DNA of 64,000 bases, from the NCBI GenBank assembly GCA_963777955.1, contig CAVZSQ010000022.1, forward strand, positions 641,020 through 705,019. Direction: 5' to 3'. This document shows, piece after piece, positions 4,027 through 61,293 of this stretch. This DNA is from Calditrichia bacterium. Its GTDB lineage: Bacteria > Calditrichota > Calditrichia > JAJRVZ01. A program made the position numbers and the translations under genes. Below the pieces are notes generated by a model that saw nothing but the letters and a program-made list of their open reading frames with translations, ran no database searches and had not been told where the DNA came from. Position 1 is the first letter of the stretch, and each line of letters opens with the position of its first letter.

Positions 4027-4821
4027 TTGATGGACAAGAAAATAGTCGAACAAGGCCACTATGACCGCAAAGCCAGTCGAATGGCCAGTACCGAAGATAT
4101 CAATCCGGAACTATTAAAATCCTCAGCCGATAAAACTTTAAGACTGGCCCATGTTCATTTCGACCAAGCGGTCAATAAAGTTATGCAGGATAAAATATCC
4201 GGTACCATACTGGATTACGGTTGCGGCCCGGGTATCAGAACCTTAAAATTCATAAATGATCAATGGCAACTTACCGGCATCGATGTTTCCGATAAATCGC
4301 TGAAGATAGCCAGATCTATGGCTGAAAGAAACAATATCAAAGCAACGTATCTGAATATGGATTGTGAACAGACCAGTTTCTCTGACAATACGTTTGATCT
4401 GATCCTCGATTATGGTACTTTTTCCAGTCTCGATATGCAGAAAGCCTTGCCGGAGATAATCCGAATATTAAAAAATGACGGTACTTTAATTGCTATTGAG
4501 ACGTTAGGTCACAATCCTTTGTTTAATTTAAACCGGTATTTTAATGTAATTTTTCAAAAACGTACCAGATGGGCTGCTGAACACATCATGAAAATCCAGG
4601 ATTGGGAACAAATCCGTAAATATTTTAACGAATTTGATCTGCATTATTTTGGATTATTGACACCCTTTTGTGCTATTATGCTGAAAATCGCTCCGGAGAA
4701 AATAGTAAAAAAAATAATTTCTTTATTCGAAAGAATTGATGAATATTTGTTAAAATATAAGATATTTAAAAGATTCTCATTTAAAACAGTCGGTATTCTC
4801 AGTAAACCGATAAAAATTTAA
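4027..4821 (+). CDS. class I SAM-dependent methyltransferase
   Basis: LDYGCGPGIRT motif I, followed by an acidic motif II and a Methyltransf_11/12-like layout. Confidence 0.7.
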   Translation: MMDKKIVEQGHYDRKASRMASTEDINPELLKSSADKTLRLAHVHFDQAVNKVMQDKISGTILDYGCGPGIRTLKFINDQWQLTGIDVSDKSLKIARSMAERNNIKATYLNMDCEQTSFSDNTFDLILDYGTFSSLDMQKALPEIIRILKNDGTLIAIETLGHNPLFNLNRYFNVIFQKRTRWAAEHIMKIQDWEQIRKYFNEFDLHYFGLLTPFCAIMLKIAPEKIVKKIISLFERIDEYLLKYKIFKRFSFKTVGILSKPIKI

Positions 4822-4845
4822 TACTTTTGTAGAAAGTGCCAGTCA

Positions 4846-5430
4846 GTGAAACGACTAGCGGATATAATAATAAGTTCTATTGCTGTTATTTTATTATCTC
4901 CCATCTTAATTACTATTGCCATCTGTATTAAGATTCTTGATCCGGGTCCGGTTCTTTATAAAGCCCAACGTATCGGTCTGCATGGTGAAATATTCCGCAT
5001 GTTCAAGTTCCGGACTATGGTAGTCAACGCCGATAAGATCGGCGGATCCAGCACACCGGATAATGATCCGCGTATCACCGCTGTCGGCAGGTTTCTGCGG
5101 AAATTTAAACTGGATGAATTGCCGCAGTTATTCAATGTACTCTGCGGCGAAATGAGCATAGTAGGCCCCAGACCAGAAGTTAAAGAGTATGTAGATATGT
5201 ACAGCCAGGAAGAGAAGATAATTTTAAGTGTACGGCCCGGTATAACCGACTGGGCCTCCATCTGGAATCCGGATGAAGGCAAAATTTTACAGGGCAGCAA
5301 CGATCCGGATAAGACTTATCTGGAAATAATCCGGCCGGAAAAAATCAGGTTGCAGATGAAATATGTGCGGGAAAGATCATTCTGGGCCGACCTTAAAATC
5401 ATCTGGGCAACTTTAAAAATAATGTTTTGA
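4846..5430 (+). CDS. small PglC/WbaP-C-terminal-type phosphoglycosyl (bacterial sugar) transferase
   Basis: One N-terminal TM helix, then the conserved KFRTM...DELPQL...SIVGPRPE catalytic motifs of polyprenyl-phosphate sugar-1-phosphate transferases. Confidence 0.8.
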   Translation: MKRLADIIISSIAVILLSPILITIAICIKILDPGPVLYKAQRIGLHGEIFRMFKFRTMVVNADKIGGSSTPDNDPRITAVGRFLRKFKLDELPQLFNVLCGEMSIVGPRPEVKEYVDMYSQEEKIILSVRPGITDWASIWNPDEGKILQGSNDPDKTYLEIIRPEKIRLQMKYVRERSFWADLKIIWATLKIMF

Positions 5431-5471
5431 CGAATATATTTTAATATACCACAGAATTCGAAAGGTTTTCG

Positions 5472-6452
5472 GTGAAATATTCAAAAGAGTTCCTGAAAAA
5501 GTTATATTTGACGATGCTGCGTATCAGAATTTGCGAGGAAAGTTTTATTGATCCGATTCTGACCAAAGAAATACACTGTCCGGTCCATCTCTACTCGGGC
5601 GAAGAAGCTATTGCGACCGGCATCAGTGCCGCGTTGAAAAAGACGGACTATATCTTTGGGGGACATCGTTCCCATGGACATTACCTGGCCAAGGGCGGGA
5701 ACATGAATGAACTGGTCGCGGAAGTGTTCTGCAAGGAAGGGGGCTGTTCGCACGGCCGGGGGGGATCAATGCATCTGATCGATCCGGACAACGGATTATT
5801 AGGCTCGGCGCCAATTGTTGCCGGCACCATAGCGCTGGCAGTGGGGGCGGCCCTGGCCAGCCGGATCAGAAAAGATAAAAGGGTGGTGGTCAGTTATTTC
5901 GGTGACGGAGCTACAGGAGAGGGTGTGTTATATGAATCGCTGAACTTTGCCGCCCTGAAAAACCTGCCGATCATTTTTGCCTGTGAGAACAATTTGTATT
6001 CCACGCATCTGCCGATTCACGAAATACGGGTTGATAAAAAAATTTCGGATGTTGCCAAACCTTTTGGAATTGTAAGTTATACCATCGATGGCAATGATGT
6101 CCTGGCCATATATGAGCTTGCCAAAAAGTCGGTTGATCTGTGCAGGCGATCGAAGGGCCCTGTTTTTATTGAATTTTTAACTTATCGCCAGAGAGGACAT
6201 GTGGGACCTGATGACAATATACAGGGATCACATACCGATATCCGCCCGAAAAAGGAAATTGAAAAATGGCTGAAAAAGGATCCGCTAAAAAGATTTGAAC
6301 GTTATTTAATCCGAAACCGTGTCCTTACTGTTCCAGAAACTAAACTAATAAAGGCAGAAATTGAAAATGAAGTTCAGCAGGCTCACCAATTTGCCCGGCA
6401 GAGTCCTTACCCTAAACCTGAAGAGTTAAATCATTATGTCTACGCGAAATAG
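5472..6452 (+). CDS. thiamine-diphosphate-dependent dehydrogenase E1 component, alpha subunit (PdhA/AcoA-like)
   Basis: GTG start. HGHY...YFGDGATGEG...ACENNLY matches E1-alpha TPP-binding signatures. It is translationally coupled to the beta subunit. Confidence 0.8.
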   Translation: MKYSKEFLKKLYLTMLRIRICEESFIDPILTKEIHCPVHLYSGEEAIATGISAALKKTDYIFGGHRSHGHYLAKGGNMNELVAEVFCKEGGCSHGRGGSMHLIDPDNGLLGSAPIVAGTIALAVGAALASRIRKDKRVVVSYFGDGATGEGVLYESLNFAALKNLPIIFACENNLYSTHLPIHEIRVDKKISDVAKPFGIVSYTIDGNDVLAIYELAKKSVDLCRRSKGPVFIEFLTYRQRGHVGPDDNIQGSHTDIRPKKEIEKWLKKDPLKRFERYLIRNRVLTVPETKLIKAEIENEVQQAHQFARQSPYPKPEELNHYVYAK

Positions 6453-7425
6453 AAGTTTAAAATACAGTCTGGCCATCAATGAAGCCTTATATCAGATGAT
6501 GAAAAAGGATCGTTCTGTTTTTGTCATCGGGCAGGGGGTTAAAAGTCCATGGTATGTCGGGAATACCTGCATGGATTTGCTGGAAAAATTCGGCAGCGAC
6601 CGGGTGATCGATACTCCGGTTTCGGAGAATGCCATGACCGGCGCTGCAGTCGGCGCGGCAATCAGCGGTATGAAACCGATTGTCATTCATCCGCGGATGG
6701 ATTTTATGCTGTATGCCTTCGATCCTATCATTAATCAGGCGGCCAACTGGTCGTACATGAATGGCGGGAAAGTAAATGTGCCGGTAGTGATCTGGGGAAT
6801 TATCAATCGCGGTGGCGAGCAGGCAGCGCAGCATTCGCAAGCCCTGCATGCCTTATTTGCCCATATCCCTGGTTTAAAAGTGGTCATGCCTTCCACACCT
6901 TATGATGCTAAAGGTTTGATGGTTGCTGCGATTAATGATAAAAATCCGGTGGTATTTATTGATGATCGCTGGTTGTACAACATCGGATCAGATGTCCCTT
7001 CAGACTTATATGAAATAGAGATCGGCAAAGGGGTAGTCAGAAGAACAGGTTCAGATGTAACCCTGGTATCGGCTTCTTATATGATGTTAGAATCAATCAA
7101 GGCAGCTGAGGAATTATCCAGGGAAAATATTGATGTTGAGGTTATCGATCTGAGGAGCATTAAGCCTTTTGATCGCGGTCTCATCTTAGAATCTGTGAAA
7201 AAAACGGGTAAATTGGTAGTGGTCGATTGCGGATGGAAATCGTTTGGGATAGGAGCGGAAATCGCTGCGTCAGTGATGGAAGAAGGATATACTTATCTGA
7301 AAAAGCCGGTTAAAAGGATCGCACTTCCGGATATCCCGGCGCCGGCTAGCAGGTCATTGGAAAAGGTTTATTTCAATACCAGCAGTGATATAATCAGGGT
7401 AGTAAAAGAATTAATGCAATTGTAA
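6436..7425 (+). CDS. thiamine-diphosphate-dependent dehydrogenase E1 component, beta subunit (transketolase-like)
   Basis: E1-beta/transketolase pyrimidine-binding and C-terminal domains (...IGQGV...PVSENAMTGAAVGAA...). It overlaps the alpha gene by 17 nt. Confidence 0.8.
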   Translation: MSTRNRSLKYSLAINEALYQMMKKDRSVFVIGQGVKSPWYVGNTCMDLLEKFGSDRVIDTPVSENAMTGAAVGAAISGMKPIVIHPRMDFMLYAFDPIINQAANWSYMNGGKVNVPVVIWGIINRGGEQAAQHSQALHALFAHIPGLKVVMPSTPYDAKGLMVAAINDKNPVVFIDDRWLYNIGSDVPSDLYEIEIGKGVVRRTGSDVTLVSASYMMLESIKAAEELSRENIDVEVIDLRSIKPFDRGLILESVKKTGKLVVVDCGWKSFGIGAEIAASVMEEGYTYLKKPVKRIALPDIPAPASRSLEKVYFNTSSDIIRVVKELMQL

Positions 7426-7442
7426 TCTACGGAGTACCAGGT

Positions 7443-8561
7443 ATGACCAGGATGAAAGTACCCTTTGTTGCACCTTCACGTGTGTACCAATTATTGAAGA
7501 ATGAACTCGATGCAGCTTATTTCGACGTAATGACCAAAGGTGCATTGATCGACCGTGATCATTTGAAAAGTTTTGAAAACAATCTGGCAAAATACGTTGG
7601 TACCAAGTATGCCGTAGGCTTGAACAGCGGTTATGATGCCTTGCATATTTCTCTGCAGGCTGCGGGTGTAGGTCCCGGTGATGAGGTCATAGTTCCTGCG
7701 CACACATTTGTAGCCACCTGTTCGGGTGTAGTAAACGTTGGTGCAACACCAGTTTTAGTTGATGTGACTAAAGATTTTAATATTGACGTAAACCTGATCG
7801 AACCGGTTATCACCAAAAAGACAAAAGGAATAATCCCGGTACATTTGAGTGGCTACATGGCCGATATGCCCCGGATCATGGAAATTACTAAAAAGTATAA
7901 TCTGATAGTTATCGAAGATGCCTGTCAGAGTTTAGGTTCAAATATAAATGGTAAAGCAGCCGGTTCGTGGGGCTTAACCGGATGCTGGAGTTTTTATCCA
8001 TTTAAAATTTTAGGTGGGTATGGTGATGGCGGCGCTATTACAACCAACGATCCTGATGTTGCTTTGTTCGCCCGGCGAATGAGATATAATGGAGAAGACC
8101 GTGATACAGGTGAGTACCATGGTCATGGTTTTACCTGTTTGTTGGATAATCTCCAGGCGGCCTTTCTTGATGTAAAATTGAAATATTTACCAGAATGGAT
8201 AAAAAAAAGGAAAAAAATTGCCAACAGGTATAAAGAAGAGTTAGGTGACATACGGAATTTATTGCTTCCTCATTATAGTAAACCGGGATTCGATCACGTC
8301 TATCAAAACTATACACTTAGGTCCAAACAGGGTAATGAGTTTTCAGAATATATGAAAAAAAATGGTGTAGAGGTATTAACGCAATTCCGCAAACCTTATT
8401 ACCGGCATGAGGCGCTTAAACTAACTGATCGTGGCTTTCCAGAAACTGAAGCGTTAAGCCGGGAAGTATGCTCCCTGCCGATGAATATTGAAATCACGGA
8501 TGAGGAGGTTGATTATGTGATCAAAGTGGTACGCTCATTTTACGGATTGTCAAAATTATAA
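7443..8561 (+). CDS. DegT/DnrJ/EryC1/StrS-family PLP-dependent sugar aminotransferase
   Basis: Family-typical length and motifs (GTKYAVGLNSGYDALHISL..., internal lysine region), in glycan-locus context. Confidence 0.8.
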   Translation: MTRMKVPFVAPSRVYQLLKNELDAAYFDVMTKGALIDRDHLKSFENNLAKYVGTKYAVGLNSGYDALHISLQAAGVGPGDEVIVPAHTFVATCSGVVNVGATPVLVDVTKDFNIDVNLIEPVITKKTKGIIPVHLSGYMADMPRIMEITKKYNLIVIEDACQSLGSNINGKAAGSWGLTGCWSFYPFKILGGYGDGGAITTNDPDVALFARRMRYNGEDRDTGEYHGHGFTCLLDNLQAAFLDVKLKYLPEWIKKRKKIANRYKEELGDIRNLLLPHYSKPGFDHVYQNYTLRSKQGNEFSEYMKKNGVEVLTQFRKPYYRHEALKLTDRGFPETEALSREVCSLPMNIEITDEEVDYVIKVVRSFYGLSKL

Positions 8562-9807: not shown

Positions 9808-10816
9808 ATGATAAATGTAGGTGTCATTGGTGTCGGTTACTGGGGTCCTAACCTGATCCGCAATTTTGTGGCTAATCCTGATACGGACATACAAATCTGC
9901 TGTGACCTGAACAGGGATCGGCTGAAATATATTTCCAGTCTGTATCCTGCCTTATCGACCACCGGTGACTTTAAGGAAGTCATCAAAGATAATGATCTTA
10001 ATCTGGTCGCCATCTGTACACCGGTCAATACGCATTTCGATATCGCCAAAGCAGCGTTGGAAAATGGAAAACATGTTTTGATCGAAAAACCGATGACGGC
10101 CACTTCAAAACAGGCGGAAGAGTTGATCCAGCTGGCCCAAAAACAAAGCAGGCGTATTTTCGTTGATCATACCTTTATCTATACCGGAGCCGTGAGAAAA
10201 ATTAAGGAATATATCCAAAACGGGGAACTGGGAGATCTGTTCTATTTTGATTCAGTACGAGTCAACCTGGGTATGTTTCAGCATGATGTGAATGTCCTGT
10301 GGGATCTGGCTCCTCATGATGTATCTATTATGAATTTTTTACTGGGGGAAAAGGCAGAAAGCGTGGTAGCCACCGGTTCGGTTCATCTGAATAATGAACT
10401 CGAAGACGTTGCTTATCTTACTATTTATTATCCCAATAATCTCATTGCCCACATTCATACCAGACTGGCTATCACCGGTGAAAATACGTCAGACTTTGAT
10501 TGCCGGCAGTAAAAAAATGATCATCTGGGATGATAATCAACCTAGTGAAAAAGTCAGGATGTATGATAAGGGAATCGATGTGATCCAAAATGCTGATCAG
10601 GTGTACAATATGTTAATACAGTATCGAACGGGTGATATGTATTCTCCACATCTGGATTCAACGGAAGCTCTGGTGGTGGAAGTTAATCATATCATTGAAT
10701 GCCTAAATCAAAATAAACCATCCCCGGCCGACGGCGAAACGGGACAGATGGTGGTGAGGATTCTTGAAGCTGCCCAGGGATCGATTAAGAACAGGGGTAA
10801 GGAAATCAGATTATAA
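9808..10816 (+). CDS. Gfo/Idh/MocA-family NAD(P)-dependent sugar oxidoreductase (WbpB-like), with an internal frameshift near 10440-10470
   Basis: N-terminus VGVIGVGYWGPNLIRNF is the Rossmann motif. The C-terminal half continues in another frame (ORF 10394-10816: ...SPVKIRQTLIAGSKKMIIWDD...). The two ORFs together reach the normal family length. Confidence 0.7.
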
Positions 10817-10929
10817 AATATGTGTCGATTGCTCCGGATGTTCAACTGGGAAAGAGTGTTAAAATTTTCGATTTTGTAAATTTATGATGAATGGAATTCA
10901 AAACGGCGCCATAACGCCAAATTGTATAA

Positions 10930-11100
10930 TCATTATTTTAAAGATATAGTAGAAGTAATTACGCCTGCGGTCCCTGAGTGGGTCAGACCGGCCTGGCAGT
11001 TTTATTTCATTCGGGTGCGAGATCGTGAGGGCTTGTAGAAATATTTGCAGGATAACGGTATCAGCAAAGGCCGCAACTTCAGGACGCTGGGGAGTATCAT
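10930..11100 (+). pseudogene. remnant of a DegT-type aminotransferase C-terminus
   Basis: Translation ...PEWVRPAWQFYFIRVRDREGL*KYLQDNGISKG... resembles the conserved C-terminal block of DegT/EryC1 aminotransferases. The frame is broken by an internal stop and there is no N-terminus. Confidence 0.4.
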
Positions 11101-11103
11101 CCG

Positions 11104-12977
11104 ATGAACGTGCTTAAGAAAATTTTTCAAAGTGTTACACCGCTTAAACGGACCATCTTCTTTGTTATCGCTGATGGAATTATTTTTATTATTTCCCTGT
11201 ATCTTTCCTATGCGTTGAAATTCGGACTAAAACTGCAAAGCCACCCCTTCCCGTATGATTTCGTACTCAACGCTATTCCGTTATTCCTGGTCGTTAAATT
11301 CCTGGTCTATTTCAAACTGCATTTATACCAGTTCACCTGGCAATACGTGGGGCTGAATGAATTATATAACCTGCTCAAAGCTAATACGATCAGTGCAGCG
11401 ATCATTTTTCTGGTTTATTTCATCGGCTTTAGTTACGTCCCTAACTGGCTGCCCAAGAGTGTAATCATTTCCGATTATTTTATTTCCTTCATTCTGGCCG
11501 GCTCGCTGCGTATCATTAAACGCTTGTTCATTGAGATCTTCAAACCGGCACGGACCAAACGGGGTAAAACAACTATTATTATTGGTGCCAACAGCACAGG
11601 CGAAATGATCATGCGTGACCTGCGCCGGGAGAATTTCGAAAATTACTTGCCGGTAGCCTTCCTGGACGAGGATCGCCGCAAGTGGAATACCTATATTCAT
11701 GATATAGCAGTGTTAGGCGATGTCAGCGTTCTGGAGACTGTAGCCAGGAAAATGGATGTGAAGGCCTTGCTGATAGCTGACCATTCGCTGAACCTGCGAG
11801 AGATTAAAAATATCTATACCACGGCGAACAAGCTGGGAATCAAGGAAATAAAAATCGTTCCCAAGTTGTACTCGATTACCAATGCGGAAGTCACGGTGAA
11901 AAAACTGGAAGATATCCACGTGGAGGAGTTGATCAACCGGCAGGAAATCCAGGTTGAAGCCGAGAAGATAGGCCAGTTCCTGAAACAAAAAACCATCCTG
12001 ATCACCGGTGCGGCCGGTTCGATCGGATCCGAAATCGTGCGCCAGGTTATGATATTTAATCCTGCCAGGGTAATTATTTTCGAAATAGATGAGACTGAGA
12101 TTTTCAATCTGGAAAAACAACTGGACGAGCGATTTCCTGAAGTTGATCGACCGGGTCATCTACATCAGTTGTCGGTGATGTAAAAGATAAAAATAAAGTT
12201 TTCACAGTTTTCGAAAAATATAGACCGGAGATCGTATTCTCGACCGCAGCATATAAACATGTACCATTGATGGAATCCAATCCGGATGAAGCAATCAAAG
12301 TAAATCTGTTCGGAACCTATCATCTCTGCGCTGCAGCGGATAAATTCGGTGTCCAGAAATTTATCAATATTTCCACGGATAAAGCGGTCAATCCGCGCAG
12401 CGTGATGGGTATGACCAAGCGGATCGGGGAATATATCGCCCAGGCTTTCAACGAGACCAGCAAGACCCGCTATATATCGGTGCGTTTCGGCAACGTATTC
12501 GGTTCGCGCGGCAGCGTGATCCCGGTTTTCCTGGAACAGATCCGCAAAGGGGGGCCGGTAACGGTAACCCATCCCGATATGCAGCGTTATTTTATGACCA
12601 TCCCGGAGGCGGTAACGCTGGTACTGCAGGCCAGCGTACTGGGACAGGGGGGCGAAGTGATGATCCTGGATATGGGCGAGCCGATTCATATCACCAAAAT
12701 GGCCGAAGAACTGATCAAACTGCATGGCCTTACTCCGGGACAGGATATTGAAATCACTTATACCGGTATTCGTCCCGGTGAAAAAATATTCGAAGAGATC
12801 CTGACCGCCGAAGAGGGAACAACCAAGACCACCCATGAACGGATCTATGTGGCTATCGTGTCAAATCGCTATAACCGCCAGGAAATCGATAAACTGATGG
12901 AAAGTTTTAATGTAGCACTCAATAATGGGATATCGCTGGATCAGTTGAAGCAGAGGATTGTGGAGGCGGTGAGGTAA
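11104..12977 (+). CDS. CapD/PglF/WbpM-type membrane-anchored NAD-dependent nucleotide-sugar 4,6-dehydratase, with an internal frameshift near 12165
   Basis: N-terminal TM helices plus the ILITGAAGSIGSEI Rossmann motif sit in ORF 11104-12183. The conserved ...VGDVKDK...VFHAAAYKHVPLMESNP... continues in other frames into ORF 12267-12977. Confidence 0.75.
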
Positions 12978-13424
12978 ATGAGGGACAGAGGGACAAAGAG
13001 ACAAAGGGACAAAGGGAAAACGATATTTAGGAGTTATTAAGTAGGAGGCGCTTCCCAGCGCCGATTAACGGTAGCCGCAATCTTTAGATTGCGGAAGAGT
13101 ATTATAACGAAATGCCAGTAGCCGCGACTTGTGTCGCGGCGAAGGAATCAGATTCCTGCCCTAATGCGGGCAAGCCTGCAATATGAAATGCAGGAATGAC
13201 GGTGCGGTAGATTTATAGTTTGTGCACCCAAAGATTCCTCCTCGTCCCGGTAAATCGGGTCTTGTCGGAATGACAGTTTGGATAGAATTTTACAAGGATA
13301 TAGTAGAGATTGTCTTGGAGGGTAAAGGGTAGAATGAAAACTAAGTACCTTATTGTCTTTCCTTTATCCTTTACCCTTTAGCCTTTATCCTTATATATTA
13401 ATACCGATCAATAAAATATTAATC
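12978..13424. repeat. intergenic 8-bp-period repeat element (locus 1): AGGGACAR x5 array, then a roughly 300-bp run of GC-rich hairpins, then inverted TAAAGGG-type repeats
   Basis: 12981-13020 reads agggacag|agggacaa|agagacaa|agggacaa|agggaaaa. Hairpins follow: ccgcaatc-ttta-gattgcgg, gccgcgac-ttgt-gtcgcggc, cctgca-atatgaaa-tgcagg and ggtgc...gcacc. 13321-13336 ggtaaagggtagaatg faces 13361-13390 cctttatcctttaccctttagcctttatcc. Confidence 0.6.
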
Positions 13425-14477
13425 ATGGAAAGCATTTTCATTTTCTCCGCATCAATGATCTGTTCCTTACTGGTGACCCGGTTAGTAATAACCATTGCTA
13501 CCCGTTTTAAAATCGGTTCGCTCCCCGATACACGGAAGATCCATGTGGGATTTGTCCCGACTCTGGGCGGACTGGGAATTTTTCTGGGAACGGTGGCCGG
13601 TATCCTGGTTTCCCTGTTGTGGAAAGATTATTACTGGCAGATGTTCTCGATTAAATATATCGGAATAACCCTGGGTGCCCTGATCATGCTGCTCACCGGT
13701 ATCATTGATGATATTTACCGGCTGAGCGCCAACCGCAAATTTATCGCCCAGATCCTGGCCGCAACTGTGGTGATTCTATTCGGTTGCAAAATGACTGTAC
13801 TCGTCAATCCATTCGGTGCACCGCTCGACCTGGGTATATTTTCAATTCCGCTAACCTATTTCTGGCTGCTGCTGGTAACAAATTCCATAAATTTGCTGGA
13901 TGGTCTGGATGGTCTGGCCGGGGGGGTTTCCCTGCTGGTTCTGGCTACCTTCTCCATCCTGGCTTTCAATCAGACGGATTGGATGACTTTTGCATTATGC
14001 CTGGCACTATTGGGCGGGATACTCGGTTTCCTGAAATATAATTATCATCCGGCCCGGATTTTTATGGGGGATACCGGCTCGTTATTTCTGGGATTTCTGA
14101 TCGCCACTATTTCCCTGGAAGGATTGCAGAAATCGGCAGGTAATGTATCCCTGTTGATACCTATAGTTGCTTTGTCTGTCCCGCTGGGTGATTCCACCGT
14201 CGCTTTTTTCCGGCGATTGAATCGCGGCCAGCATCCCTTCATTGCCGATAAGGATCATATCCATCATCGCCTGCTTTTCCTGGGCTTATCGCACCGGCAG
14301 GCTGTGCATACCATATATATTTTCAGTTTGTTGTTTGGATTATCCGCTTACCTGATTTCCACGGACCTGCGCGTCTACGGAATCATCCTGCTGGCAGTGA
14401 TTACACTGATAGTCTCTGACCAGCCTGTTTCGCCTGGGTTATCTGGAAGCAGAAAAAATCAAGACTTACCTTGGTGA
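13425..14477 (+). CDS. WecA/WbpL/MraY-family (GT4 polyprenyl-phosphate N-acetylhexosamine-1-phosphate transferase)
   Basis: About 10 TM helices and the conserved INLLDGLDGLA and FMGDTGS motifs of the MraY/WecA superfamily. The likely start is ATG 13425; the track ORF starts upstream at 13353. Confidence 0.8.
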   Translation: MESIFIFSASMICSLLVTRLVITIATRFKIGSLPDTRKIHVGFVPTLGGLGIFLGTVAGILVSLLWKDYYWQMFSIKYIGITLGALIMLLTGIIDDIYRLSANRKFIAQILAATVVILFGCKMTVLVNPFGAPLDLGIFSIPLTYFWLLLVTNSINLLDGLDGLAGGVSLLVLATFSILAFNQTDWMTFALCLALLGGILGFLKYNYHPARIFMGDTGSLFLGFLIATISLEGLQKSAGNVSLLIPIVALSVPLGDSTVAFFRRLNRGQHPFIADKDHIHHRLLFLGLSHRQAVHTIYIFSLLFGLSAYLISTDLRVYGIILLAVITLIVSDQPVSPGLSGSRKNQDLPW

Positions 14478-20947: not shown

Positions 20948-21040
20948 AAATATATATACTTATTCATATTTATTATCGGATAATTTTAGTCCAAATCAAG
21001 TCCGGAAATGAAAATAGCAGGAAGTCGATCAGTTTAATTA

Positions 21041-21140
21041 AGGGACAAAGGGACAAAGAAATAACCCATTAAGGGGTGGTATTAGGCGTAAAATGATAAG
21101 GCACTGGTATTGGTACAAAGGGACTCAGTGCTTAACATCA
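21041..21140. repeat. intergenic 8-bp-period repeat element (locus 2, short)
   Basis: agggacaaagggacaaag at 21041-21058, followed by ggcactg...acaaagggactcagtgc, an inverted GCACTG/CAGTGC pair around an ACAAAGGGACTCAG unit. Confidence 0.5.
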
Positions 21141-21158
21141 GGTGACTAGTTCTTCTTT

Positions 21159-36531: not shown

Positions 36532-36604
36532 GTGTCCCTCCTGTAAAGGTGTAATTAAATGTATATTTTATATATTTTAATCAGATTAGAACTAATATCC
36601 AAGT

Positions 36605-36870
36605 GTTTTTTATTCCCGGATAGTATCGAAGTACCTTAGTTCCTTAGTCCCTGAGTTCCTTAGTCCCTTAGTACCTGAGTTATTCCCGCTGAGCGATTGG
36701 TACGCCTGATCGTATGTTGGCGGTAATCTTTAATGAAGGATATACGTTCATAAGAAGGCGCTTACTAACACCCGAACACGGGCTAGTGTAGCGCGGATTG
36801 CAGGAATGATAGATTTGATGAAAGGTACTCAGGTACTCAGGGACTAAGGAACTTAGGTACTAAGGTACTA
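36605..36870. repeat. intergenic 8-bp-period repeat element (locus 3): inverted arms of about 50 bp (TNCCTNAG x6 and AGGNACTN x6) flanking a roughly 140-bp GC-rich core
   Basis: Left arm 36631-36682 reads taccttag|ttccttag|tccctgag|ttccttag|tcccttag|tacctgag. Right arm 36824-36870 (ggtactcaggtactcagggactaaggaacttaggtactaaggtacta) is its imperfect reverse complement. The core contains ATTCCCGC...GGCGGTAAT, AGGCGCTT and TGCAGGAATGA. Confidence 0.7.
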
Positions 36871-36955
36871 TATTTAGAATAAAATCCCTCTTTTGCTTAA
36901 CATATTTTTGTGGTAATTTTCCTGAGAACAAAAGATAGCAGCAGGGAGGCGCATA

Positions 36956-41615: not shown

Positions 41616-41616
41616 T

Positions 41617-41790
41617 AAAAAGGGACAAAGAGACAAAGGGACAGAGGGACAAAGAAGGCACTGAGGCACTGAGCAAAAAGTACCTGAGTCCCTGAGTCCC
41701 TAGAGAAAAATACAGGACACGGGGTCATTCCCGCTAAACGGGTGCTTTGTTTGATCGTATATGGGCGGGAATCTCTGCTAATAAAGGACA
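41617..41790. repeat. intergenic 8-bp-period repeat element (locus 4)
   Basis: 41621-41656 agggacaaagagacaaagggacagagggacaaag. Then ggcactgaggcactgag. Then 41673-41704 tacctgagtccctgagtccctagag in inverted sense. The core is ATTCCCGCtaaacgggtgctttgtttgatcgtatatgGGCGGGAAT, a 9-bp stem. Confidence 0.65.
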
Positions 41791-41813
41791 TAAACAGAAA
41801 CACATGATTTAGG

Positions 41814-49510: not shown

Positions 49511-49646
49511 GGAAGGGACAAAGGGACAGAGATCGGAGGCCGGGCGAAACCAGGCCGGAGACCTGCCAATAGGCAGGGACAAAGGGACAAAGTAATGACT
49601 AAGGGACTAAGGGACTAAGGAACTAAGGAACTCAGGTACTAAAAGG
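49511..49646. repeat. intergenic 8-bp-period repeat element (locus 5): all units in the GGA sense
   Basis: aagggaca|aagggaca|gag, then a hairpin insert (ggccgggcgaaaccaggccgg; cctgcc-aata-ggcagg), then agggacaa|agggacaa|agtaatga|ctaaggga|ctaaggga|ctaaggaa|ctaaggaa|ctcaggta|ctaaaagg. The array is contiguous in one 8-nt register. Confidence 0.7.
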
Positions 49647-49714
49647 ATATAAGATTAAAGATGAAAGATTAAAGAAATAAAGTATGCAGGTACTTAAGAT
49701 TTGAAAATCCGGAA

Positions 49715-50722
49715 TTGCTTCAGCTGCTGTGGGGAGTATTATTGTTACTCGGTTTTTTTATCAGCATGAACCGCTATAAAAAACAATTGCTCAAACATTT
49801 CGGTAATCTGGAGATTCTGCACAAACTAATGCGCAGTTATAGTCCCGGCCGCCGGAATCTGAAGATCCTGTTACTCTTATTGAGTTACGTTTTTTTTGTA
49901 ATTGCACTGGCTAATCCGCAGATTGGCACCAGGTTGGAAGAAGTGAAGCGGGAAGGGGTTGATATCATCATCGCCATCGATGTTTCCAAGAGCATGCTGG
50001 CCGAGGATATTACGCCAAATCGTCTGGAAAAAGCCAAACATGCAGTCAGCAGGTTTCTTGACTTACTGCAGGGGGACCGTATTGGTCTGGTCGCTTTTGC
50101 CGGTATTGCCCATGTACAATGTCCCCTTACTCTCGATTATAGCGCGGCCAAATTATTTCTGAGTATCATTGATCCGGGCCTGATTCCGCAGCCCGGCACC
50201 GCGATCGGTGAAGCGATTAAAGTGTCCGCAGCGGCATTCAACGTCAAGGAGCGTAAATCTAAAGTTTTGATCTTGATTACCGATGGTGAAGAACATGAAG
50301 GGGATCCGGTAGAAGCCGCCACGGAAGCAGAAAAACAAGGGGTCATTATTTATACGGTCGGTATCGGTTCACCCGAAGGGGTACCGATTCCGGAATACAG
50401 TCAATCCGGGGCACAAACTGGATTTAAAAAAGACCGGCAGGGCAGCGTGGTGACCACCAAACTGGATGTTTATACTTTACAGAAAATTGCCTATGAAACC
50501 GGCGGTAAATATTATCTGGCCAGCAGCAGCGAATCCGAACTGGACGATATCTATGATGAAATCCTGGCCATGGAGAAAAAAGAACTGGTTTCCAAACAAT
50601 TCTCCCAGTATGAAGACCGTTTTCAGATCTTTCTGGCTATCGGTCTGTTTTTTCTGATCGCTGAAATTCTGATCCCGGAACGCAGGAAAGTAAAGGCGGA
50701 ATGGGAAGGGAGGTTCGTGTGA
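49715..50722 (+). CDS. batB: vWA-domain aerotolerance protein BatB
   Basis: TM helices plus a vWA MIDAS motif (DVSKSM). The TTG start at 49715 is uncertain. Confidence 0.7.
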   Translation: MLQLLWGVLLLLGFFISMNRYKKQLLKHFGNLEILHKLMRSYSPGRRNLKILLLLLSYVFFVIALANPQIGTRLEEVKREGVDIIIAIDVSKSMLAEDITPNRLEKAKHAVSRFLDLLQGDRIGLVAFAGIAHVQCPLTLDYSAAKLFLSIIDPGLIPQPGTAIGEAIKVSAAAFNVKERKSKVLILITDGEEHEGDPVEAATEAEKQGVIIYTVGIGSPEGVPIPEYSQSGAQTGFKKDRQGSVVTTKLDVYTLQKIAYETGGKYYLASSSESELDDIYDEILAMEKKELVSKQFSQYEDRFQIFLAIGLFFLIAEILIPERRKVKAEWEGRFV

Positions 50723-51423
50723 TCCGTATATATTTCGTACTGATTGTTTCTTTATTTACGGTCTCTGCCGGATTTGCTCAATCCATGCGCGGAAAAATAA
50801 ATGCCGGCAATAAAATGTATCACCAGGAAAAGTATGATGAAGCCCTGAACAAATATAAGGATGCCCTGCTGGATGATCCCAAAAATGAGATTGCCACTTT
50901 TAACCAGGGTGACGCTTCCTATAAAATACAAAAGTACGATGAGGCCATCGAATCTTTTCAGAAAGTGATGGGCAGCAAGGATTTAAAGTTGGAAGAACAG
51001 GCTCATTTCAATATTGGTAATTCCTGGTTCAAGCAGGATAAATTACAGGAGAGTATTCAGGCCTATAAAATGGCGCTGGACCTTGATCCTGATGATCAGG
51101 ACGCTAAATATAATCTGGAACTGGCCCGGGCAAAATTAAAAGAGCAGGCACAGAAACAACCGATGCAGCAACAGCCGCAACAACAGCAGCAAGACGGGCA
51201 AAATCAGCAGCAACAGAACCAGCAAAGTCAGCAGCAGGAACAACAACAGCAACAACAACAGCAGCAGGCTCAGCCGCAAAACCAGGAGCAGGTCGACAAA
51301 GATAAAATGTCAAAAAAAGATGCCGAACGTATTCTGGATGCCCTGAAAAACCAGGAAAAAGAAAAACAAAAACGGCGGCGCATGGTTCCCCCGACCAGGC
51401 GCCAGGTGGATAAAGACTGGTAA
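50719..51423 (+). CDS. batC: TPR-repeat protein BatC with a Gln-rich low-complexity tail
   Basis: A GTG start overlaps the batB stop (GTGA), with a GGAAGGGAGG SD upstream. TPR repeats are followed by a poly-Q/CAG-CAA tract. Confidence 0.65.
   Translation: MIRIYFVLIVSLFTVSAGFAQSMRGKINAGNKMYHQEKYDEALNKYKDALLDDPKNEIATFNQGDASYKIQKYDEAIESFQKVMGSKDLKLEEQAHFNIGNSWFKQDKLQESIQAYKMALDLDPDDQDAKYNLELARAKLKEQAQKQPMQQQPQQQQQDGQNQQQQNQQSQQQEQQQQQQQQQAQPQNQEQVDKDKMSKKDAERILDALKNQEKEKQKRRRMVPPTRRQVDKDW
51148..51290. repeat. CAG/CAA trinucleotide repeat tract encoding poly-Gln in BatC
   Basis: cagcaacagccgcaacaacagcagcaa...caacaacagcaacaacaacagcagcag. Confidence 0.7.
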
Positions 51424-53251: not shown

Positions 53252-53252
53252 G

Positions 53253-53505
53253 ACACAAAGTAAGGGACAAAGAGACATAGAGACAAAGGGACAAAGAAAG
53301 GCACAAGGTACAAAGTAAAAAGTAACTGAGTTCCTTAGTCCCTGAGTACCTGAGTAATGCACTTAGCATAATCATCCCGGGCATGTCGGAGACCTGGCGC
53401 AGACAGGACCCGGGATCTATATGTGTCAAATTATAGCTTGATTCCCGCCTTTGGCGGGAAGACGAGTGTGTGGTTCTATCGAAGGCTAAAGGGTAAAGGG
53501 AAAAG
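53253..53505. repeat. intergenic 8-bp-period repeat element (locus 6)
   Basis: 53253-53320 gacacaaagtaagggacaaagagacatagagacaaagggacaaagaaaggcacaaggtacaaag. Then 53323-53358 in inverted sense, taactgagttccttagtccctgagtacctgagt. The core has cccgggcatgtcggagacctggcgcagacaggacccggg and ATTCCCGCctttgGCGGGAA. Then ggctaaagggtaaagggaaaagg. Confidence 0.7.
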
Positions 53506-53544
53506 GATAGTAGATTGTTGGAAATAAATTTAAATACAAATATT

Positions 53545-54297: not shown

Positions 54298-54805
54298 GCG
54301 GACAGTCGTATTCCGGATTGGGATTCTGTTAAGCCTGAGTCTGGCGCTGTTGAATTGCGGCGGCAGCCGGGAGACGATCAGAAAGGACCTGCCGCAGCAA
54401 AATCCTGCGGCGGCCGGCCGTTATGATGAATCTTTTGATCCGTTAACTCTCCAGGACGATGATCTGGTCATTGCTGCAGATAGCATACGGACATCAAGCA
54501 ACACGGGAGAAAGCAGTTCCGACCTGCCAGGACAATCATCGATTCCCAACGAAACTGAGGGATTTCGTGTTCAGATCATGGCTACCAATAATATCGGCAC
54601 GGCGTCTTTAACCGAGCAGGAAGCCACCGCACGATTCGGCCCGCAGGGTTTTAAAGTTTATCTGGTATTTGAAGCACCTTTATATAAAATCCGGGTTGGG
54701 GATTGCCTGGAACGTAATACTGCTGAAGAATTGCGCGATAAGGCGAAAGATTTCGGTTATGGCGGTGCGTTTGTGGTAAAAAGCAAAATCAATCTCGGTA
54801 ACTAG
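54278..54805 (+). CDS. SPOR-domain lipoprotein
   Basis: Lipobox (LLNCGG), then a C-terminal SPOR-like domain (...GFRVQIMATNN...YKIRVGDCLERNTAEELRDKAKDFGYGGAFVV). Confidence 0.55.
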   Translation: MVWKSSKRTVVFRIGILLSLSLALLNCGGSRETIRKDLPQQNPAAAGRYDESFDPLTLQDDDLVIAADSIRTSSNTGESSSDLPGQSSIPNETEGFRVQIMATNNIGTASLTEQEATARFGPQGFKVYLVFEAPLYKIRVGDCLERNTAEELRDKAKDFGYGGAFVVKSKINLGN

Positions 54806-54808
54806 AAC

Positions 54809-56751: not shown

Positions 56752-56760
56752 ATGTTTAAA

Positions 56761-56980
56761 AGTAGCTTAGTTCCTGAGTACCTGAGTTCCTTAGTCCCTT
56801 AGTTTCTGAGTGATTCTTATTTAGTTTATCTCCTGTTATTAATATAAGATTCATGTTAATATATGGTCAAGTGTGGCTGCGATTTAAGTCAGAAATAAAA
56901 GAAAATCTTCAGGGTTAAAAAGAGTATGGATAAAAAATCAATTTACTCAGGTACTCAGGTACTCAGGGACTCAGTGCCTT
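56761..56980. repeat. intergenic 8-bp-period repeat element (locus 7): inverted arms flanking a roughly 130-bp AT-rich core
   Basis: Left arm 56761-56811 agtagcttagttcctgagtacctgagttccttagtcccttagtttctgagt. Right arm 56945-56978 actcaggtactcaggtactcagggactcagtgcc is its inverse, followed by TTTT. Confidence 0.7.
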
Positions 56981-56984
56981 TTAT

Positions 56985-58445: not shown

Positions 58446-58669
58446 GTAGAGGTAAAGAGTAAAACAAATACTATTGAATATCGCCAAACAATTAGTTATT
58501 ATTTAAGCGTGCCAATAAATAGTCTACCCTAATTGAACTAATAACAGACATATTGACTAAGCATAAAACAATTTTAATTTTTCGTAAACGATCATAAGTA
58601 ATCGTCTCTAATCAGAAGTATACTATGATATATGAGATATATTTTGTGTACTATTTTGAGGAGTCTGAC

Positions 58670-61186: not shown

Positions 61187-61293
61187 CAATAACCGGCCGG
61201 GCGTTTCACTGATGTTCTTGAACGCAGCGCTTAAATAAATTGTCCTTGACAAAAGTACAAAGAGTGCATATATTATCCTTAAATAAATGACAA

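What the first reader, a model, noticed from the sequence alone, without database searches (positions are those of the whole stretch)
13021..13424. A 450-bp hairpin-laden non-coding insert inside the polysaccharide operon between the CapD-like dehydratase and the WecA-like transferase
At least six consecutive short GC stems with 4-8 nt loops follow the AGGGACAR array: ggcgc-ttccca-gcgcc, ccgcaatc-ttta-gattgcgg, gccgcgac-ttgt-gtcgcggc, cctgca-atatgaaa-tgcagg, ggtgc...gcacc and cccg-gtaaat-cggg. Inverted TAAAGGG-type repeats lie at 13321-13336 and 13361-13390, the latter overlapping the ribosome-binding region of the WecA-like gene. The insert could be a structured sRNA, an internal terminator or attenuator that splits the operon, or a degenerate copy of the repeat-element family.
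Basis: seen in the sequence. Interest (0 to 1): 0.5.

Follow-up and report, generated by a model that had tools for sequence, protein, structure and literature searches.

The report
Repeat-and-hairpin filler between two sugar genes
The 447-base gap between two cell-envelope sugar genes of this Calditrichota bacterium is a fast-changing pile-up of short repeated DNA (tandem 8- and 7-base arrays plus small GC hairpins), not a dedicated RNA switch, although its arrays are of the type that frames a small mystery gene in many other bacteria.

Summary
Window 12978-13424 is 447 nt of non-coding DNA between a CapD-like gene (Polysacc_synt_2) and a WecA-like gene (Glycos_transf_4). It carries more perfect GC hairpins than any other same-sized tile of the window: 5, against 0.7 in shuffles.

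The riboregulator readings are not supported:
- No Rfam match, no terminator-like site and no ORF.
- The syntenic spacer in a relative (L178) is 89 nt and has no repeats.
- In the closest relative (L001, WecA 93% identical) the spacer is 722 nt, and only about 76 nt (two hairpins prefixed by GTAG) can be aligned.
- Other L001 modules match different intergenic regions of this window.

The spacer is therefore a lineage-specific, modular pile-up of repeats. It has an AGGGACAR octamer array 3 nt after the CapD stop, REP-like palindromes (including an ATTCCYGC...GCRGGAAT family seen in three other spacers here), and a heptamer-array palindrome.

Six other spacers in the window carry the same octamer arrays. 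The same array type occurs in metagenome contigs of 26-67% GC, often as inverted pairs. It hugged all six 23S-rRNA-IVS-protein gene loci that could be checked for it. Paired tandem octanucleotide sites were already described in Geobacter metallireducens.

Verdict: new member of a known kind; function unproven.

The parts
12267..12977 (+). C-terminal part of the CapD-like gene (Polysacc_synt_2). It forms the upstream boundary, with stop codon TAA at 12975-12977.
   Evidence: Pfam E=6.4e-81. 73% identical to the intact L178 CapD. The N-terminal part (11104-12183) lies in another reading frame.
12981..13023 (+). Purine-rich octamer array (AGGGACAR, about 5 units) that begins 3 nt after the stop codon.
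   Evidence: Tandem Repeats Finder: period 8, 4.6 copies. The family gives 25 matches in the window against 1.7 expected.
13047..13062 (+). Hairpin 1: GGCGCT/TCCC/AGCGCC. Its stem base resembles the longer hairpin at 36768-36806.
   Evidence: -10.5 kcal/mol, z -3.8; listed. The resemblance to 36768-36806 was judged by reading.
13071..13094 (+). Hairpin 2: GTAG followed by CCGCAATC/TTTA/GATTGCGG (REP-like form).
   Evidence: -12.3 kcal/mol. Orthologous copy at L001 468-491, with one compensatory U-A to A-U change.
13118..13140 (+). Hairpin 3: GTAG overlapping GCCGCGAC/TTGT/GTCGCGGC. It is a paralogue of hairpin 2 and shares GTAGCCGC with it.
   Evidence: -17.4 kcal/mol, z -4.65. Direct repeat D5. 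The L001 copy keeps every pair, two of them as G-U.
13150..13205 (+). Unit E1: AGATTCCTGC...GCAGGAATGACGG, enclosing two inner hairpins (13157-13172 and 13175-13194).
   Evidence: Inverted repeat I16 and direct repeats D4/D6. Member of the ATTCCYGC...GCRGGAAT family.
13201..13228 (+). Imperfect hairpin GGTGC...GCACC.
   Evidence: -8.9 kcal/mol, z -1.7. It is weak when taken alone.
13232..13279 (+). Unit E2: AGATTCC...GGAATGACAG, enclosing CCCG/GTAAAT/CGGG (13246-13259). It is a second copy of E1's ends.
   Evidence: Direct repeats D4 (spacing 74) and D6 (spacing 82).
13319..13336 (+). Purine-rich heptamer array (AGGGTAA-type). It forms the 5' arm of a local array palindrome.
   Evidence: Inverted repeats I4/I6, 92% complementary to 13365-13384. 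Duplex energy -26.5 kcal/mol, z -3.5.
13356..13392 (+). Pyrimidine-rich heptamer array (TCCTTTA x 4.7). It forms the 3' arm of the local palindrome and a weak partner of the 12981 octamer array.
   Evidence: Duplex with 12978-13025 is -30.2 kcal/mol, z -2.2 only.
13393..13424 (+). AT-rich 32-nt stretch before the WecA-like start codon. It has no Shine-Dalgarno sequence and is not conserved in L001, L178 or L181.
   Evidence: Sequence read. One promoter-like match at 13370-13399, which is no more than chance gives.
13425..14477 (+). WecA-like glycosyl-1-phosphate transferase (Glycos_transf_4). It forms the downstream boundary.
   Evidence: Pfam E=9.3e-43. 93% identical to the L001 protein.

Best explanation
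The CapD-WecA spacer is a lineage-specific pile-up of short repetitive DNA, not a dedicated regulatory RNA.

Its three components are:
- A solo purine-rich octamer array (AGGGACAR) directly after the CapD stop codon.
- A core of small GC palindromes of REP-like form. These comprise two GTAG-prefixed hairpins and two ATTCC...GGAATGAC units that belong to a hairpin family dispersed in this genome's spacers.
- A heptamer-array palindrome just upstream of WecA.

Shown here: the anatomy, the excess of hairpins, the absence of the insert from a syntenic relative, the rapid modular turnover, and the recurrence of the same arrays and hairpin family in other spacers.

Inferred: the arrays grow and shrink by replication slippage, and the palindromic units are inserted or duplicated at the DNA level. 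The whole spacer is probably co-transcribed with the co-directional gene cluster. In that transcript it would fold into several stable stem-loops without U-tracts. Such stem-loops should not terminate transcription. As shown for REP/BIME elements in E. coli (established knowledge), they could slow 3' exonucleases or offer double-stranded sites for RNase III, and so uncouple the stability of the upstream and downstream cistrons.

The arrays are of the same RGGNAC-type class that bounds intergenic cassettes in many other bacteria. Some of those cassettes carry a four-helix-bundle '23S rRNA IVS protein' gene.
For: 1. Hairpin excess and fold z-scores.

2. The insert is lineage-specific.
- L178 has the same gene order, with CapD 71-73% and WecA 64% identical. 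Its spacer is 89 nt and AT-rich, and the locus has no arrays.
- In L179 the transferase overlaps the upstream gene.

3. Turnover is fast.
- L001 coding DNA is 83-88% identical to the window, but its spacer is 722 nt.
- Only window 13068-13143 aligns with L001 464-541.

4. Modules are shared between different loci.
- L001 888-985 matches window 36621-36728 on the - strand.
- L001 370-401 matches window 49649-49680.

5. The repeat families are dispersed.
- Octamer arrays lie in 7 spacers of the window; there are 25 matches against 1.7 expected.
- 7 of the 12 ATTCC[CT]GC sites lie in the 11% of the window that is non-coding, and all 7 are in array-bearing spacers.

6. The signals expected of a dedicated RNA are missing.

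7. The array class extends beyond this lineage.
- The strict motif AGGNACnnAGGNAC gives 0 hits in 464 kb of unrelated loci and 29 in this window.
- More than 120 metagenome contigs of 26-67% GC carry the array, and 41 of 120 have an inverted partner.
- The arrays show no orientation bias relative to flanking ORFs, which argues for a DNA-level element.
Against: - Only 64 kb of this genome and 3.6 kb of one close relative were available. The copy number of the GTAG-CCGC hairpins outside this locus is therefore unknown. In the window they occur only here.
- The two orthologous hairpins keep all 16 base pairs across the two genomes, with one compensatory change and two G-C to G-U changes. This hints at selection on the hairpins, and the G-U pairs hint at + strand RNA. 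With two sequences the test has no power (252 of 500 shuffles do as well).
- No transcription data exist, so co-transcription and any RNA-level effect are inferred.
- No transposase was found that could move the units (a weak test with a single query).
Confidence: 0.7

Rival explanations
1. IVS-like processing cassette. The inverted arrays pair in the polycistronic RNA into a long imperfect duplex. RNase III cleaves it, as in 23S rRNA intervening sequences, and this separates the CapD and WecA cistrons as a selected function.
For: - Array-array duplexes are strong in other spacers: -69.7 kcal/mol at 36532, -44.4 at 56752 and -45.1 in the orthologous L001 spacer.
- The minimum-free-energy fold of this spacer closes it with the 5' and 3' arrays.
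- The same array type hugs the gene for the protein named after rRNA intervening sequences in six of six independent loci checked.
Against: - In this spacer the outer arrays have different periods (8 and 7 nt). They pair weakly: 77% over 22 nt, -30.2 kcal/mol, z -2.2.
- In metagenome loci the arrays show no orientation bias relative to genes, and some appear to lie inside ORFs.
- There is no experimental evidence that RNase III cleaves such arrays.
- The syntenic relative L178 manages without any such element.
Confidence: 0.12
2. Protein-binding arrays. The tandem octamers and heptamers are multivalent binding sites for a DNA- or RNA-binding protein. Candidates are a nucleoid protein, as proposed for the Geobacter paired sites; a CsrA-like GGA binder; or a four-helix-bundle IVS protein. 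The spacer would then be a regulatory landing pad.
For: - The octamer is conserved across contigs of 26-67% GC.
- Purine-rich units contain GGA and Shine-Dalgarno-like AAGG (sequence).
- Geobacter paired tandem repeats were interpreted as IHF/HU sites (PMC2700814).
- The arrays are tightly associated with IVS-protein genes.
Against: - No candidate binding protein was identified in the window.
- No IVS-protein gene or remnant lies in the 64 kb.
- Array sequence, copy number and polarity differ even between the orthologous spacers of the window and L001. That is not what a tuned operator would show.
- This reading explains the arrays but not the hairpin core.
Confidence: 0.08
3. Internal terminator or attenuator. 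One or more of the GC stems stop or modulate transcription between CapD and WecA, so that WecA and the downstream genes form a separately controlled unit.
For: - Stable GC stems of -10 to -17 kcal/mol.
- One promoter-like match, TTTACC-18-TATATT, at 13370-13399.
- CapD carries a frameshift here and a premature stop in L001, while WecA is intact. WecA may therefore need its own expression signal.
Against: - No stem is followed by a T-run on either strand; the scan finds no terminator-like site within 12978-13424.
- No alternative mutually exclusive pairings or leader peptide were found.
- The element is not conserved in L178.
- The count of promoter-like sites is below the shuffle mean.
Confidence: 0.05
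4. An independent structured small RNA gene lies in the spacer, on either strand.
For: Significant fold z-scores on both strands, stronger on the - strand at -7.06.
Against: - No Rfam family matches even at E<=10; the only hits are chance matches to plant and animal miRNA models.
- No promoter-plus-terminator pair was found.
- Only 76 of the 447 nt are conserved in the closest relative, and none in L178.
- The strong - strand score comes from array-array pairing, not from a compact fold.
Confidence: 0.03
5. ops/JUMPStart-like antitermination signal. The conserved GGTAGCCGC in both hairpins recruits a specialised NusG paralogue, as GGCGGTAG does for RfaH in enterobacterial polysaccharide operons. 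The ops consensus is recalled from memory.
For: - GGTAGC is shared with the ops consensus.
- The motif is the best-conserved part of the spacer between the window and L001.
- The location, within a polysaccharide gene cluster upstream of the initiating transferase, is the expected one.
Against: - No NusG-like gene was found among the 16 cluster ORFs scanned against Pfam.
- The motif is absent from the syntenic L178 spacer.
- A six-base resemblance noticed after the fact is weak evidence.
- RfaH itself is proteobacterial (established knowledge).
Confidence: 0.02

Closest known systems
Paired tandem octa-/hepta-/nona-nucleotide repeat sites of Geobacter metallireducens (Aklujkar et al. 2009, PMC2700814)
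   Same: Both consist of three to five tandem units of 7-9 nt, present as pairs on opposite strands at variable distance. Both are multicopy and mostly intergenic, including between genes of one operon, and both are species-specific in content. The Geobacter class 2 consensus TCTCCGTS[Y] resembles the arrays seen in metagenome locus L088.
   Different: The unit sequences differ: AGGGACAR, AGGTACTN and AAAGGGT here. The phylum is Calditrichota. In this spacer the outer pair is mismatched in period, and a 230-nt hairpin core lies between the arrays. The Geobacter sites were interpreted, without a test, as IHF/HU binding sites.
REP / BIME / REPIN elements (repetitive extragenic palindromes of Enterobacteria and Pseudomonas; PMC3116915 and classical literature)
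   Same: Both are short GC-rich imperfect palindromes. Both are extragenic, often lie between co-transcribed genes, and occur clustered in mosaics. Two units here are preceded by GTAG, the tetranucleotide conserved 5' of REPs (from memory). The inner stem bases vary with compensation between copies.
   Different: Neither a genome-wide copy number nor a RAYT transposase could be shown. The GTAG hairpins occur only at this locus within 64 kb. The ATTCC...GGAAT family has a conserved stem base but a highly variable, insertion-prone interior. The units are embedded between tandem arrays, which REPs are not.
Cyanobacterial STRR heptamer arrays and the TAACTGA direct repeats of Beggiatoaceae, Cyanobacteria and Bacteroidetes (PMC4679880)
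   Same: Both are short tandem arrays of a 7-8 nt unit, of 2-6 or more copies. Both are abundant in intergenic regions, sit close to start or stop codons, and show a patchy cross-phylum distribution. Their function is unknown.
   Different: The unit here is mostly 8 nt and purine-rich. The arrays frequently come as inverted pairs able to form long stems. They are associated with IVS-protein genes, which those papers do not report.
23S rRNA intervening sequences that carry the S23p / four-helix-bundle ORF (Leptospira, Coxiella; established knowledge)
   Same: Both are cassettes bounded by inverted repeats that can form a stem. The same protein family (PF05635) sits inside array-bounded cassettes in L177, L182, L192, L194, L195 and L196.
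   Different: This spacer contains no such ORF or any remnant of one. It is not in an rRNA gene. Its outer arms pair only weakly.

Membership tests
REP / REPIN | Short GC-rich imperfect palindrome in an extragenic position | tested here: met
   Hairpins 13075-13094 and 13121-13140 have 8-bp stems and energies of -12.3 and -17.4 kcal/mol. They lie in a non-coding gap.
REP / REPIN | Conserved GTAG tetranucleotide at the 5' side of the palindrome (feature recalled from the REP/RAYT literature) | tested here: met
   GTAG lies at 13071-13074 and 13118-13121. It is invariant in all four copies, two in the window and two in L001.
REP / REPIN | Tens to hundreds of dispersed copies per genome | tested here: inconclusive
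   GTAGCCGC hairpins occur only at this locus within the 64 kb. The ATTCCYGC family has copies in 4 spacers plus L001. The whole genome was not available.
REP / REPIN | A cognate RAYT (Y1 transposase) gene in the genome | not testable with these tools
   tblastn with one Y1 transposase found nothing in the window. However, 64 kb is about 1% of a genome.
Paired tandem-oligonucleotide sites (Geobacter type) | Three or more tandem units of 7-9 nt | tested here: met
   Array at 12981-13017: period 8, 4.6 copies. Array at 13360-13392: period 7, 4.7 copies.
Paired tandem-oligonucleotide sites (Geobacter type) | A second array of the same unit on the opposite strand at variable distance | tested here: inconclusive
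   The inner heptamer pair 13319-13336 / 13356-13392 meets this (92% complementary). The outer octamer array has only a weak partner of a different period (z -2.2). The feature is clearly met in the sister spacers at 36532, 41616, 53252 and 56752, and in L001.
Paired tandem-oligonucleotide sites (Geobacter type) | Multicopy and mainly intergenic | tested here: met
   Seven spacers of the window carry the arrays: 25 matches against 1.7 expected, and 29 strict double units against 0 in 464 kb of control loci.
Intrinsic terminator / attenuator | GC stem followed by a U-tract; for an attenuator, alternative pairings or a leader peptide | tested here: not met
   No terminator-like site lies within 12978-13424 on either strand. 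The tails after the stems are A/G-rich. There is no leader ORF.
Any curated RNA family (Rfam 15) | Covariance-model match at the gathering score | tested here: not met
   There are 0 matches in the whole window. At E<=10 only sub-threshold hits to miRNA models appear.
IVS-protein cassette (array-bounded PF05635 gene) | Purine-rich RGGNAC array upstream and its inverse downstream, inserted between co-directional genes | tested here: inconclusive
   The polarity and position are the same as in L182, L194 and L196. However, the downstream array here is a heptamer of a different sequence.
IVS-protein cassette (array-bounded PF05635 gene) | Encodes a 23S_rRNA_IVP / four-helix-bundle protein | tested here: not met
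   tblastn found nothing. A profile built from 120 IVS proteins was searched against six-frame translations of all large spacers and the whole window, and every hit had E>0.8.
MITE | Terminal inverted repeats plus a target-site duplication, and several near-identical copies | tested here: not met
   The end arrays are only 77% complementary over 22 nt. No duplication is seen at the junctions (reading). No other copy of the core exists in the window or in 1.2 Mb of fetched loci.

The most novel reading that the evidence does not exclude
The spacer is a cargo-less or decayed member of a cross-phylum family of 'foldback' cassettes. Their ends are inverted arrays of RGGNAC-type octamers, and their full versions carry a four-helix-bundle 23S-rRNA-IVS-protein gene, a relative of the DGR protein Avd. 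These cassettes insert precisely between genes of operons, for example between cas1 and cas2. On this reading the arrays are the functional ends of a mobile or RNA-processed element, rather than slippage products. The abundant, unexplained 'four helix bundle protein' genes of bacteria would be its cargo.
Probability: 0.2. Interest if true: 0.7.

Novelty: new member of a known kind. Interest (0 to 1): 0.4.

Why it matters
For this locus the result is mostly a warning. A long, strikingly structured spacer inside a polysaccharide gene cluster is not a riboswitch, an sRNA or a terminator. It is fast-evolving repeat filler that differs even between genomes whose coding DNA is 83-88% identical.

Two wider points follow.
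- A Calditrichota lineage turns out to be very rich in short tandem arrays and palindromic units: 29 strict double units in 64 kb, against none in 464 kb of control loci. The Caldithrix abyssi genome paper does not report such arrays; it describes only an 18-nt palindrome, which is absent here.
- The same octamer arrays occur in contigs of 26-67% GC, and they tightly flank the six independent 23S-rRNA-IVS-protein gene loci that could be checked for them. I found no paper describing this link. If the link is general, it gives a handle on a very common gene family of unknown function, and on repeat pairs first noted in Geobacter in 2009.

Tried and rejected
- **Rfam.** The whole window at gathering score and the gap at E<=10 gave nothing usable. 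L001 gave nothing either.
- **tRNA and tmRNA.** None found.
- **Promoter and terminator scan.** No terminator in the gap, and promoter-like sites are not enriched.
- **Small ORFs.** None longer than 36 aa lies inside the gap.
- **Exact-protein look-up of the WecA-like protein.** It is not on record, so the source genome is not in that collection.
- **Close WecA relatives in the 5.8-billion-protein set.** The best is 64% identical. Short contigs L180 and L181, and a third with no DNA held, did not reach the upstream spacer.
- **Self-BLAST of the gap against the window.** Only the arrays recur as near-exact matches. The hairpin core has no second copy.
- **The C. abyssi 18-nt palindrome AACCGTTnnAACGGTT.** Absent from the window.
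- **Decayed IVS-protein gene in the core.** Rejected.
- **Larger cores between paired arrays in metagenome loci.** No IVS-protein gene or other recognisable gene apart from L177; the core ORFs were not searched against Pfam.
- **Y1 transposase in the window.** None found.
- **NusG paralogue near the cluster, to support an ops-like reading of GGTAGC.** None among the 16 ORFs scanned.
- **Orientation bias of the arrays relative to flanking ORFs.** None seen, but the ORF calling was crude.
- **Literature searches.** Searches for the array sequence and for a link between IVS-protein genes and flanking repeats found nothing relevant.
- **Covariation test on the two orthologous hairpins.** All pairs are kept, but with two sequences the test has no power.
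Full report
**1. What is there**

The finding lies in a long run of co-directional (+ strand) sugar-metabolism genes. By Pfam these include aminotransferases, a GFO/IDH/MocA oxidoreductase, a CapD-like Polysacc_synt_2 protein, a Glycos_transf_4 (WecA-like) transferase, a Bac_transf protein and a family-2 glycosyltransferase. Seryl-tRNA synthetase and an acyltransferase follow. The CapD-like ORF stops at 12977, and the WecA-like ORF starts at ATG 13425. The longer TTG-initiated ORF from 13353 is not supported, because L001 and L181 begin with the same MESIF... residues at their ATG. The gap is therefore 12978-13424, 447 nt, with no ORF above 36 aa inside it, no tRNA and no Rfam match.

**2. Checking the observation**

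- A count of perfect stems (at least 5 bp, at least 3 G-C pairs, loops of 3-8 nt) gives 5 in the gap.
- 500 dinucleotide shuffles give 0.69 +/- 0.79, and none reaches 5.
- The tile holding the gap is the densest of 143 equal tiles of the window.
- The hairpin core 13040-13285 folds at -92.5 kcal/mol, z -4.0.
- The whole gap has z -4.25 on the + strand and -7.06 on the - strand.
- The three best single hairpins are -10.5, -12.3 and -17.4 kcal/mol.

The octamer array (12981-13017) and the heptamer array (13360-13392) are confirmed by Tandem Repeats Finder. So is the inverted relation between 13319-13331 and 13365-13384. One detail is wrong: the pyrimidine array ends 32 nt before the start codon, so it does not overlap the ribosome-binding region.

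**3. Anatomy**

From 5' to 3' the gap contains:
- a purine-rich octamer array that begins 3 nt after the stop codon;
- hairpin 1 (13047-13062);
- two paralogous hairpins that share GTAGCCGC (13071-13094 and 13118-13140; D5);
- two units with the same ends, AGATTCCT...GGAATGACRGT (13150-13205 and 13232-13279; D4 and D6), each enclosing small inner hairpins, with a weak hairpin between them;
- a heptamer-array palindrome, AGGGTAA-type at 13319-13336 against TCCTTTA-type at 13356-13392, with a duplex energy of -26.5 kcal/mol and z -3.5;
- 32 AT-rich bases with no Shine-Dalgarno sequence.

None of the stems is followed by a T-run on either strand, and the scan reports no terminator-like site within the gap.

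**4. The same building blocks fill other spacers of this window**

Octamer arrays of the type [ACT]AGG[GTA]AC[AT] occur in seven spacers, at about 12981, 21040, 36630/36822, 41619/41679, 49513-49642, 53262/53321 and 56769/56944. That is 25 matches to a 13-mer with up to 2 mismatches, against 1.7 expected.
- In four co-directional spacers the array starts within a few bases of the upstream stop codon.
- Several spacers have arrays in inverted pairs that could form very stable duplexes: -69.7 kcal/mol at 36532, -44.4 at 56752 and -25.3 at 41616.
- In the finding's spacer the outer arrays differ in period, and the duplex is only -30.2 kcal/mol, z -2.2.

The ATTCC[CT]GC...GC[AG]GGAAT hairpin also recurs.
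- 7 of the 12 occurrences of the 8-mer, counted on both strands, lie in the 10.9% of the window that is non-coding.
- All 7 are in array-bearing spacers at 13.1, 36.7, 41.7 and 53.4 kb.
- A binomial chance of this is about 1e-4 by my own arithmetic.
- Aligned, the family has a conserved stem base and an interior that ranges from a 4-nt loop (53441) to about 30 nt.

**5. Comparison with relatives**

The organism belongs to Calditrichota. The best genomic match, L001, is from an uncultured Calditrichota MAG with a WecA protein 93% identical.

L001 coding DNA is 83-88% identical to the window, yet its CapD-WecA spacer is 722 nt.
- Only window 13068-13143 can be aligned, with L001 464-541. This stretch holds the two GTAG hairpins and the 22 nt between them, and matches at about the coding-DNA level of identity.
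- Across the two genomes all 16 stem pairs are kept, with one compensatory U-A to A-U change and two G-C to G-U changes. With two sequences this has no statistical power.
- Other parts of the L001 spacer match different spacers of the window. L001 888-985 (an ATTCCCGC hairpin plus array) matches 36621-36728 on the opposite strand. L001 370-401 (an AAGATTA heptamer array) matches 49649-49680.

A more distant syntenic locus, L178, has the same order CapD, WecA, Bac_transf, GT2, SerRS, acyltransferase. Its CapD is 71-73% and its WecA 64% identical. It has an 89-nt AT-rich spacer and no arrays anywhere in 10.7 kb. In L179 the transferase overlaps the upstream epimerase gene.

The long spacer is thus a lineage-specific insertion or expansion, and its content turns over much faster than the flanking genes.

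**6. Beyond this lineage**

- In 41 of the 120, an inverted partner lies within 1.5 kb.
- In 39 of those the purine-rich array comes first, and the core between the arrays is mostly 14-140 nt.
- A crude ORF classification shows no orientation preference: 15 sense and 16 antisense in tandem gene pairs, 13 divergent and 9 convergent. This argues for a DNA-level element rather than a strand-specific RNA signal.

One paired array, in L177, encloses a 123-aa gene that matches Pfam 23S_rRNA_IVP at E=4e-41. I followed this up by fetching homologues of that protein.
- They sit as single-gene inserts between co-directional genes: between cas1 and cas2 in L182-L191, between a kinase and a nucleotidyltransferase in L192/L193, and between two radical-SAM genes in L194. 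L195 (Aquimarina) and L196 (Desulfobulbaceae) show the same arrangement.
- In every case the ORF is hugged by purine-rich RGGNAC-type units upstream and their inverse downstream.
- The strict pattern AGGNACnnAGGNAC has 0 hits in 464 kb of 58 unrelated loci.
- It has 29 hits in this 64-kb window.
- In the loci chosen only for their IVS-protein gene, it occurs in three of five, only within about 40 nt of the IVS-protein ORF and in the expected orientations.
- A seventh IVS-protein gene, in L114, is flanked by tandem arrays of another sequence.

The window itself has no such gene or any remnant of one. tblastn found nothing, and a profile of 120 homologues searched against six-frame translations gave only hits with E>0.8.

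**7. What it most likely is and does**

The best-supported reading (confidence about 0.7) is that the spacer is a mosaic of repetitive DNA and not a dedicated riboregulator. It combines tandem arrays of the class just described with REP-like palindromic units.

Shown: the anatomy, the statistical excess, the lineage specificity, the modular sharing between loci and the rapid turnover.

Inferred: growth by slippage and by insertion or duplication of palindromes; co-transcription with the cluster; and RNA stem-loops without U-tracts, which would not terminate transcription but might act as exonuclease barriers or RNase III substrates. The last point rests on analogy with REP/BIME elements (established knowledge), not on a test.

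The rival readings, with their evidence, are given in the rival-explanations section. They are a selected IVS-like RNase III processing cassette (0.12), protein-binding arrays (0.08), a terminator or attenuator (0.05), an sRNA (0.03) and an ops-like antitermination signal (0.02).

**8. Comparison with what is known**

- The closest described architecture is the paired tandem octa-, hepta- and nonanucleotide sites on opposite strands in Geobacter metallireducens. They number 24, 21 and 8 pairs and were proposed, untested, as IHF/HU sites (PMC2700814).
- Cyanobacterial STRR arrays and the TAACTGA repeats of Beggiatoaceae are further analogues (PMC4679880).
- The hairpins have the form of REPs, including a 5' GTAG. 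Copy number and a RAYT gene could not be tested, so I do not file them as REPs.
- The Caldithrix abyssi genome paper describes only an 18-nt palindrome (PMC5317091), which is absent from this window.
- I found no paper that gives the AGGGACAA array or that links IVS-protein genes to flanking arrays. The library searched is incomplete, so this is absence of evidence only.

**9. Verdict**

The novelty class is a new member of a known kind. Interest is moderate (0.4): the locus itself is ordinary repeat filler, but the arrays tie it to a widespread and unexplained cassette type.

Noticed in passing
L177 716-1334; L182 1452-1885; L192 1464-1922; L194 1435-1930; L195 1130-1600; L196 1150-1660; L114 10500-11300: Genes for the 23S-rRNA-IVS / four-helix-bundle protein (PF05635) sit as single-gene inserts between co-directional genes, for example between cas1 and cas2. 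They are tightly flanked by a purine-rich RGGNAC-type octamer array upstream and its inverse downstream; in L114 the flanking arrays have another sequence. Most contigs carrying such genes are only 1-2 kb long, as if the arrays break assemblies.
   Followed up: partly
window 12144-12177 (CapD-like gene 11104-12977): The CapD orthologue is split by one frameshift, from frame +1 to frame +3, when compared with the intact 632-aa L178 protein.
   Followed up: yes
L001 44-58 (orthologous to window 12750-12752): The L001 CapD gene has an in-frame TAA where the window has GAA. CapD therefore carries a different inactivating change in each of the two closest genomes.
   Followed up: partly
window 10394-10520 and 10817-11103: The GFO/IDH/MocA oxidoreductase gene is also frameshifted. 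The 287-nt 'spacer' before CapD holds stop-interrupted fragments that read like the end of a hexapeptide acyltransferase and the C-terminus of a DegT-type aminotransferase. This identification is by eye and was not checked against Pfam. The upstream part of the cluster looks decayed.
   Followed up: partly
window 20948-21158, 36532-36955, 41616-41813, 49511-49714, 53252-53514, 56752-56984: Six further spacers carry octamer arrays. Four of them carry strongly complementary inverted pairs (up to -69.7 kcal/mol at 36621-36872), several carry GC hairpins, and three carry the ATTCCCGC...GCGGGAAT family.
   Followed up: partly
L105 5298-5319, 5688-5719, 6539-6560: In a 66% GC contig, octamer arrays (GGCACGAA x3, AGGGACAA x4) lie inside one long stop-free frame (4507-7698) that, read by eye, looks like a purine-biosynthesis FGAM synthase gene. 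Arrays of this class may therefore also be tolerated within coding sequence. By a crude ORF call, 18 of 73 interior arrays were 'inside a long ORF'.
   Followed up: no
window 13071-13079 and 13118-13126; L001 468-476 and 514-522: GGTAGCCGC (AGTAGCCGC in one copy) is the best-conserved motif of the spacer. It shares GGTAGC with the enterobacterial ops/JUMPStart element of polysaccharide operons. No NusG paralogue was found among the 16 cluster ORFs scanned.
   Followed up: partly
window 54298-54808 and 61187-61651: Two spacers of 511 and 465 nt contain none of the arrays and were not examined. The first lies between convergent genes. None of the five convergent spacers of the window has arrays.
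   Followed up: no
window 60444-60780 and 51165-51267: There is a 141-nt tandem repeat (2.4 copies) inside the 853-aa ORF 58625-61186. There is also a CAG/CAA-rich tract (period 3, 9 or 12) inside ORF 50701-51423. Both look like repetitive protein-coding sequence.
   Followed up: no
L139 3857-3876: A minimal ATTCCCGC-GAAG-GCGGGAAT hairpin, identical in its stem to the window's family, occurs in an unrelated 55% GC metagenome contig that also has an octamer array.
   Followed up: no
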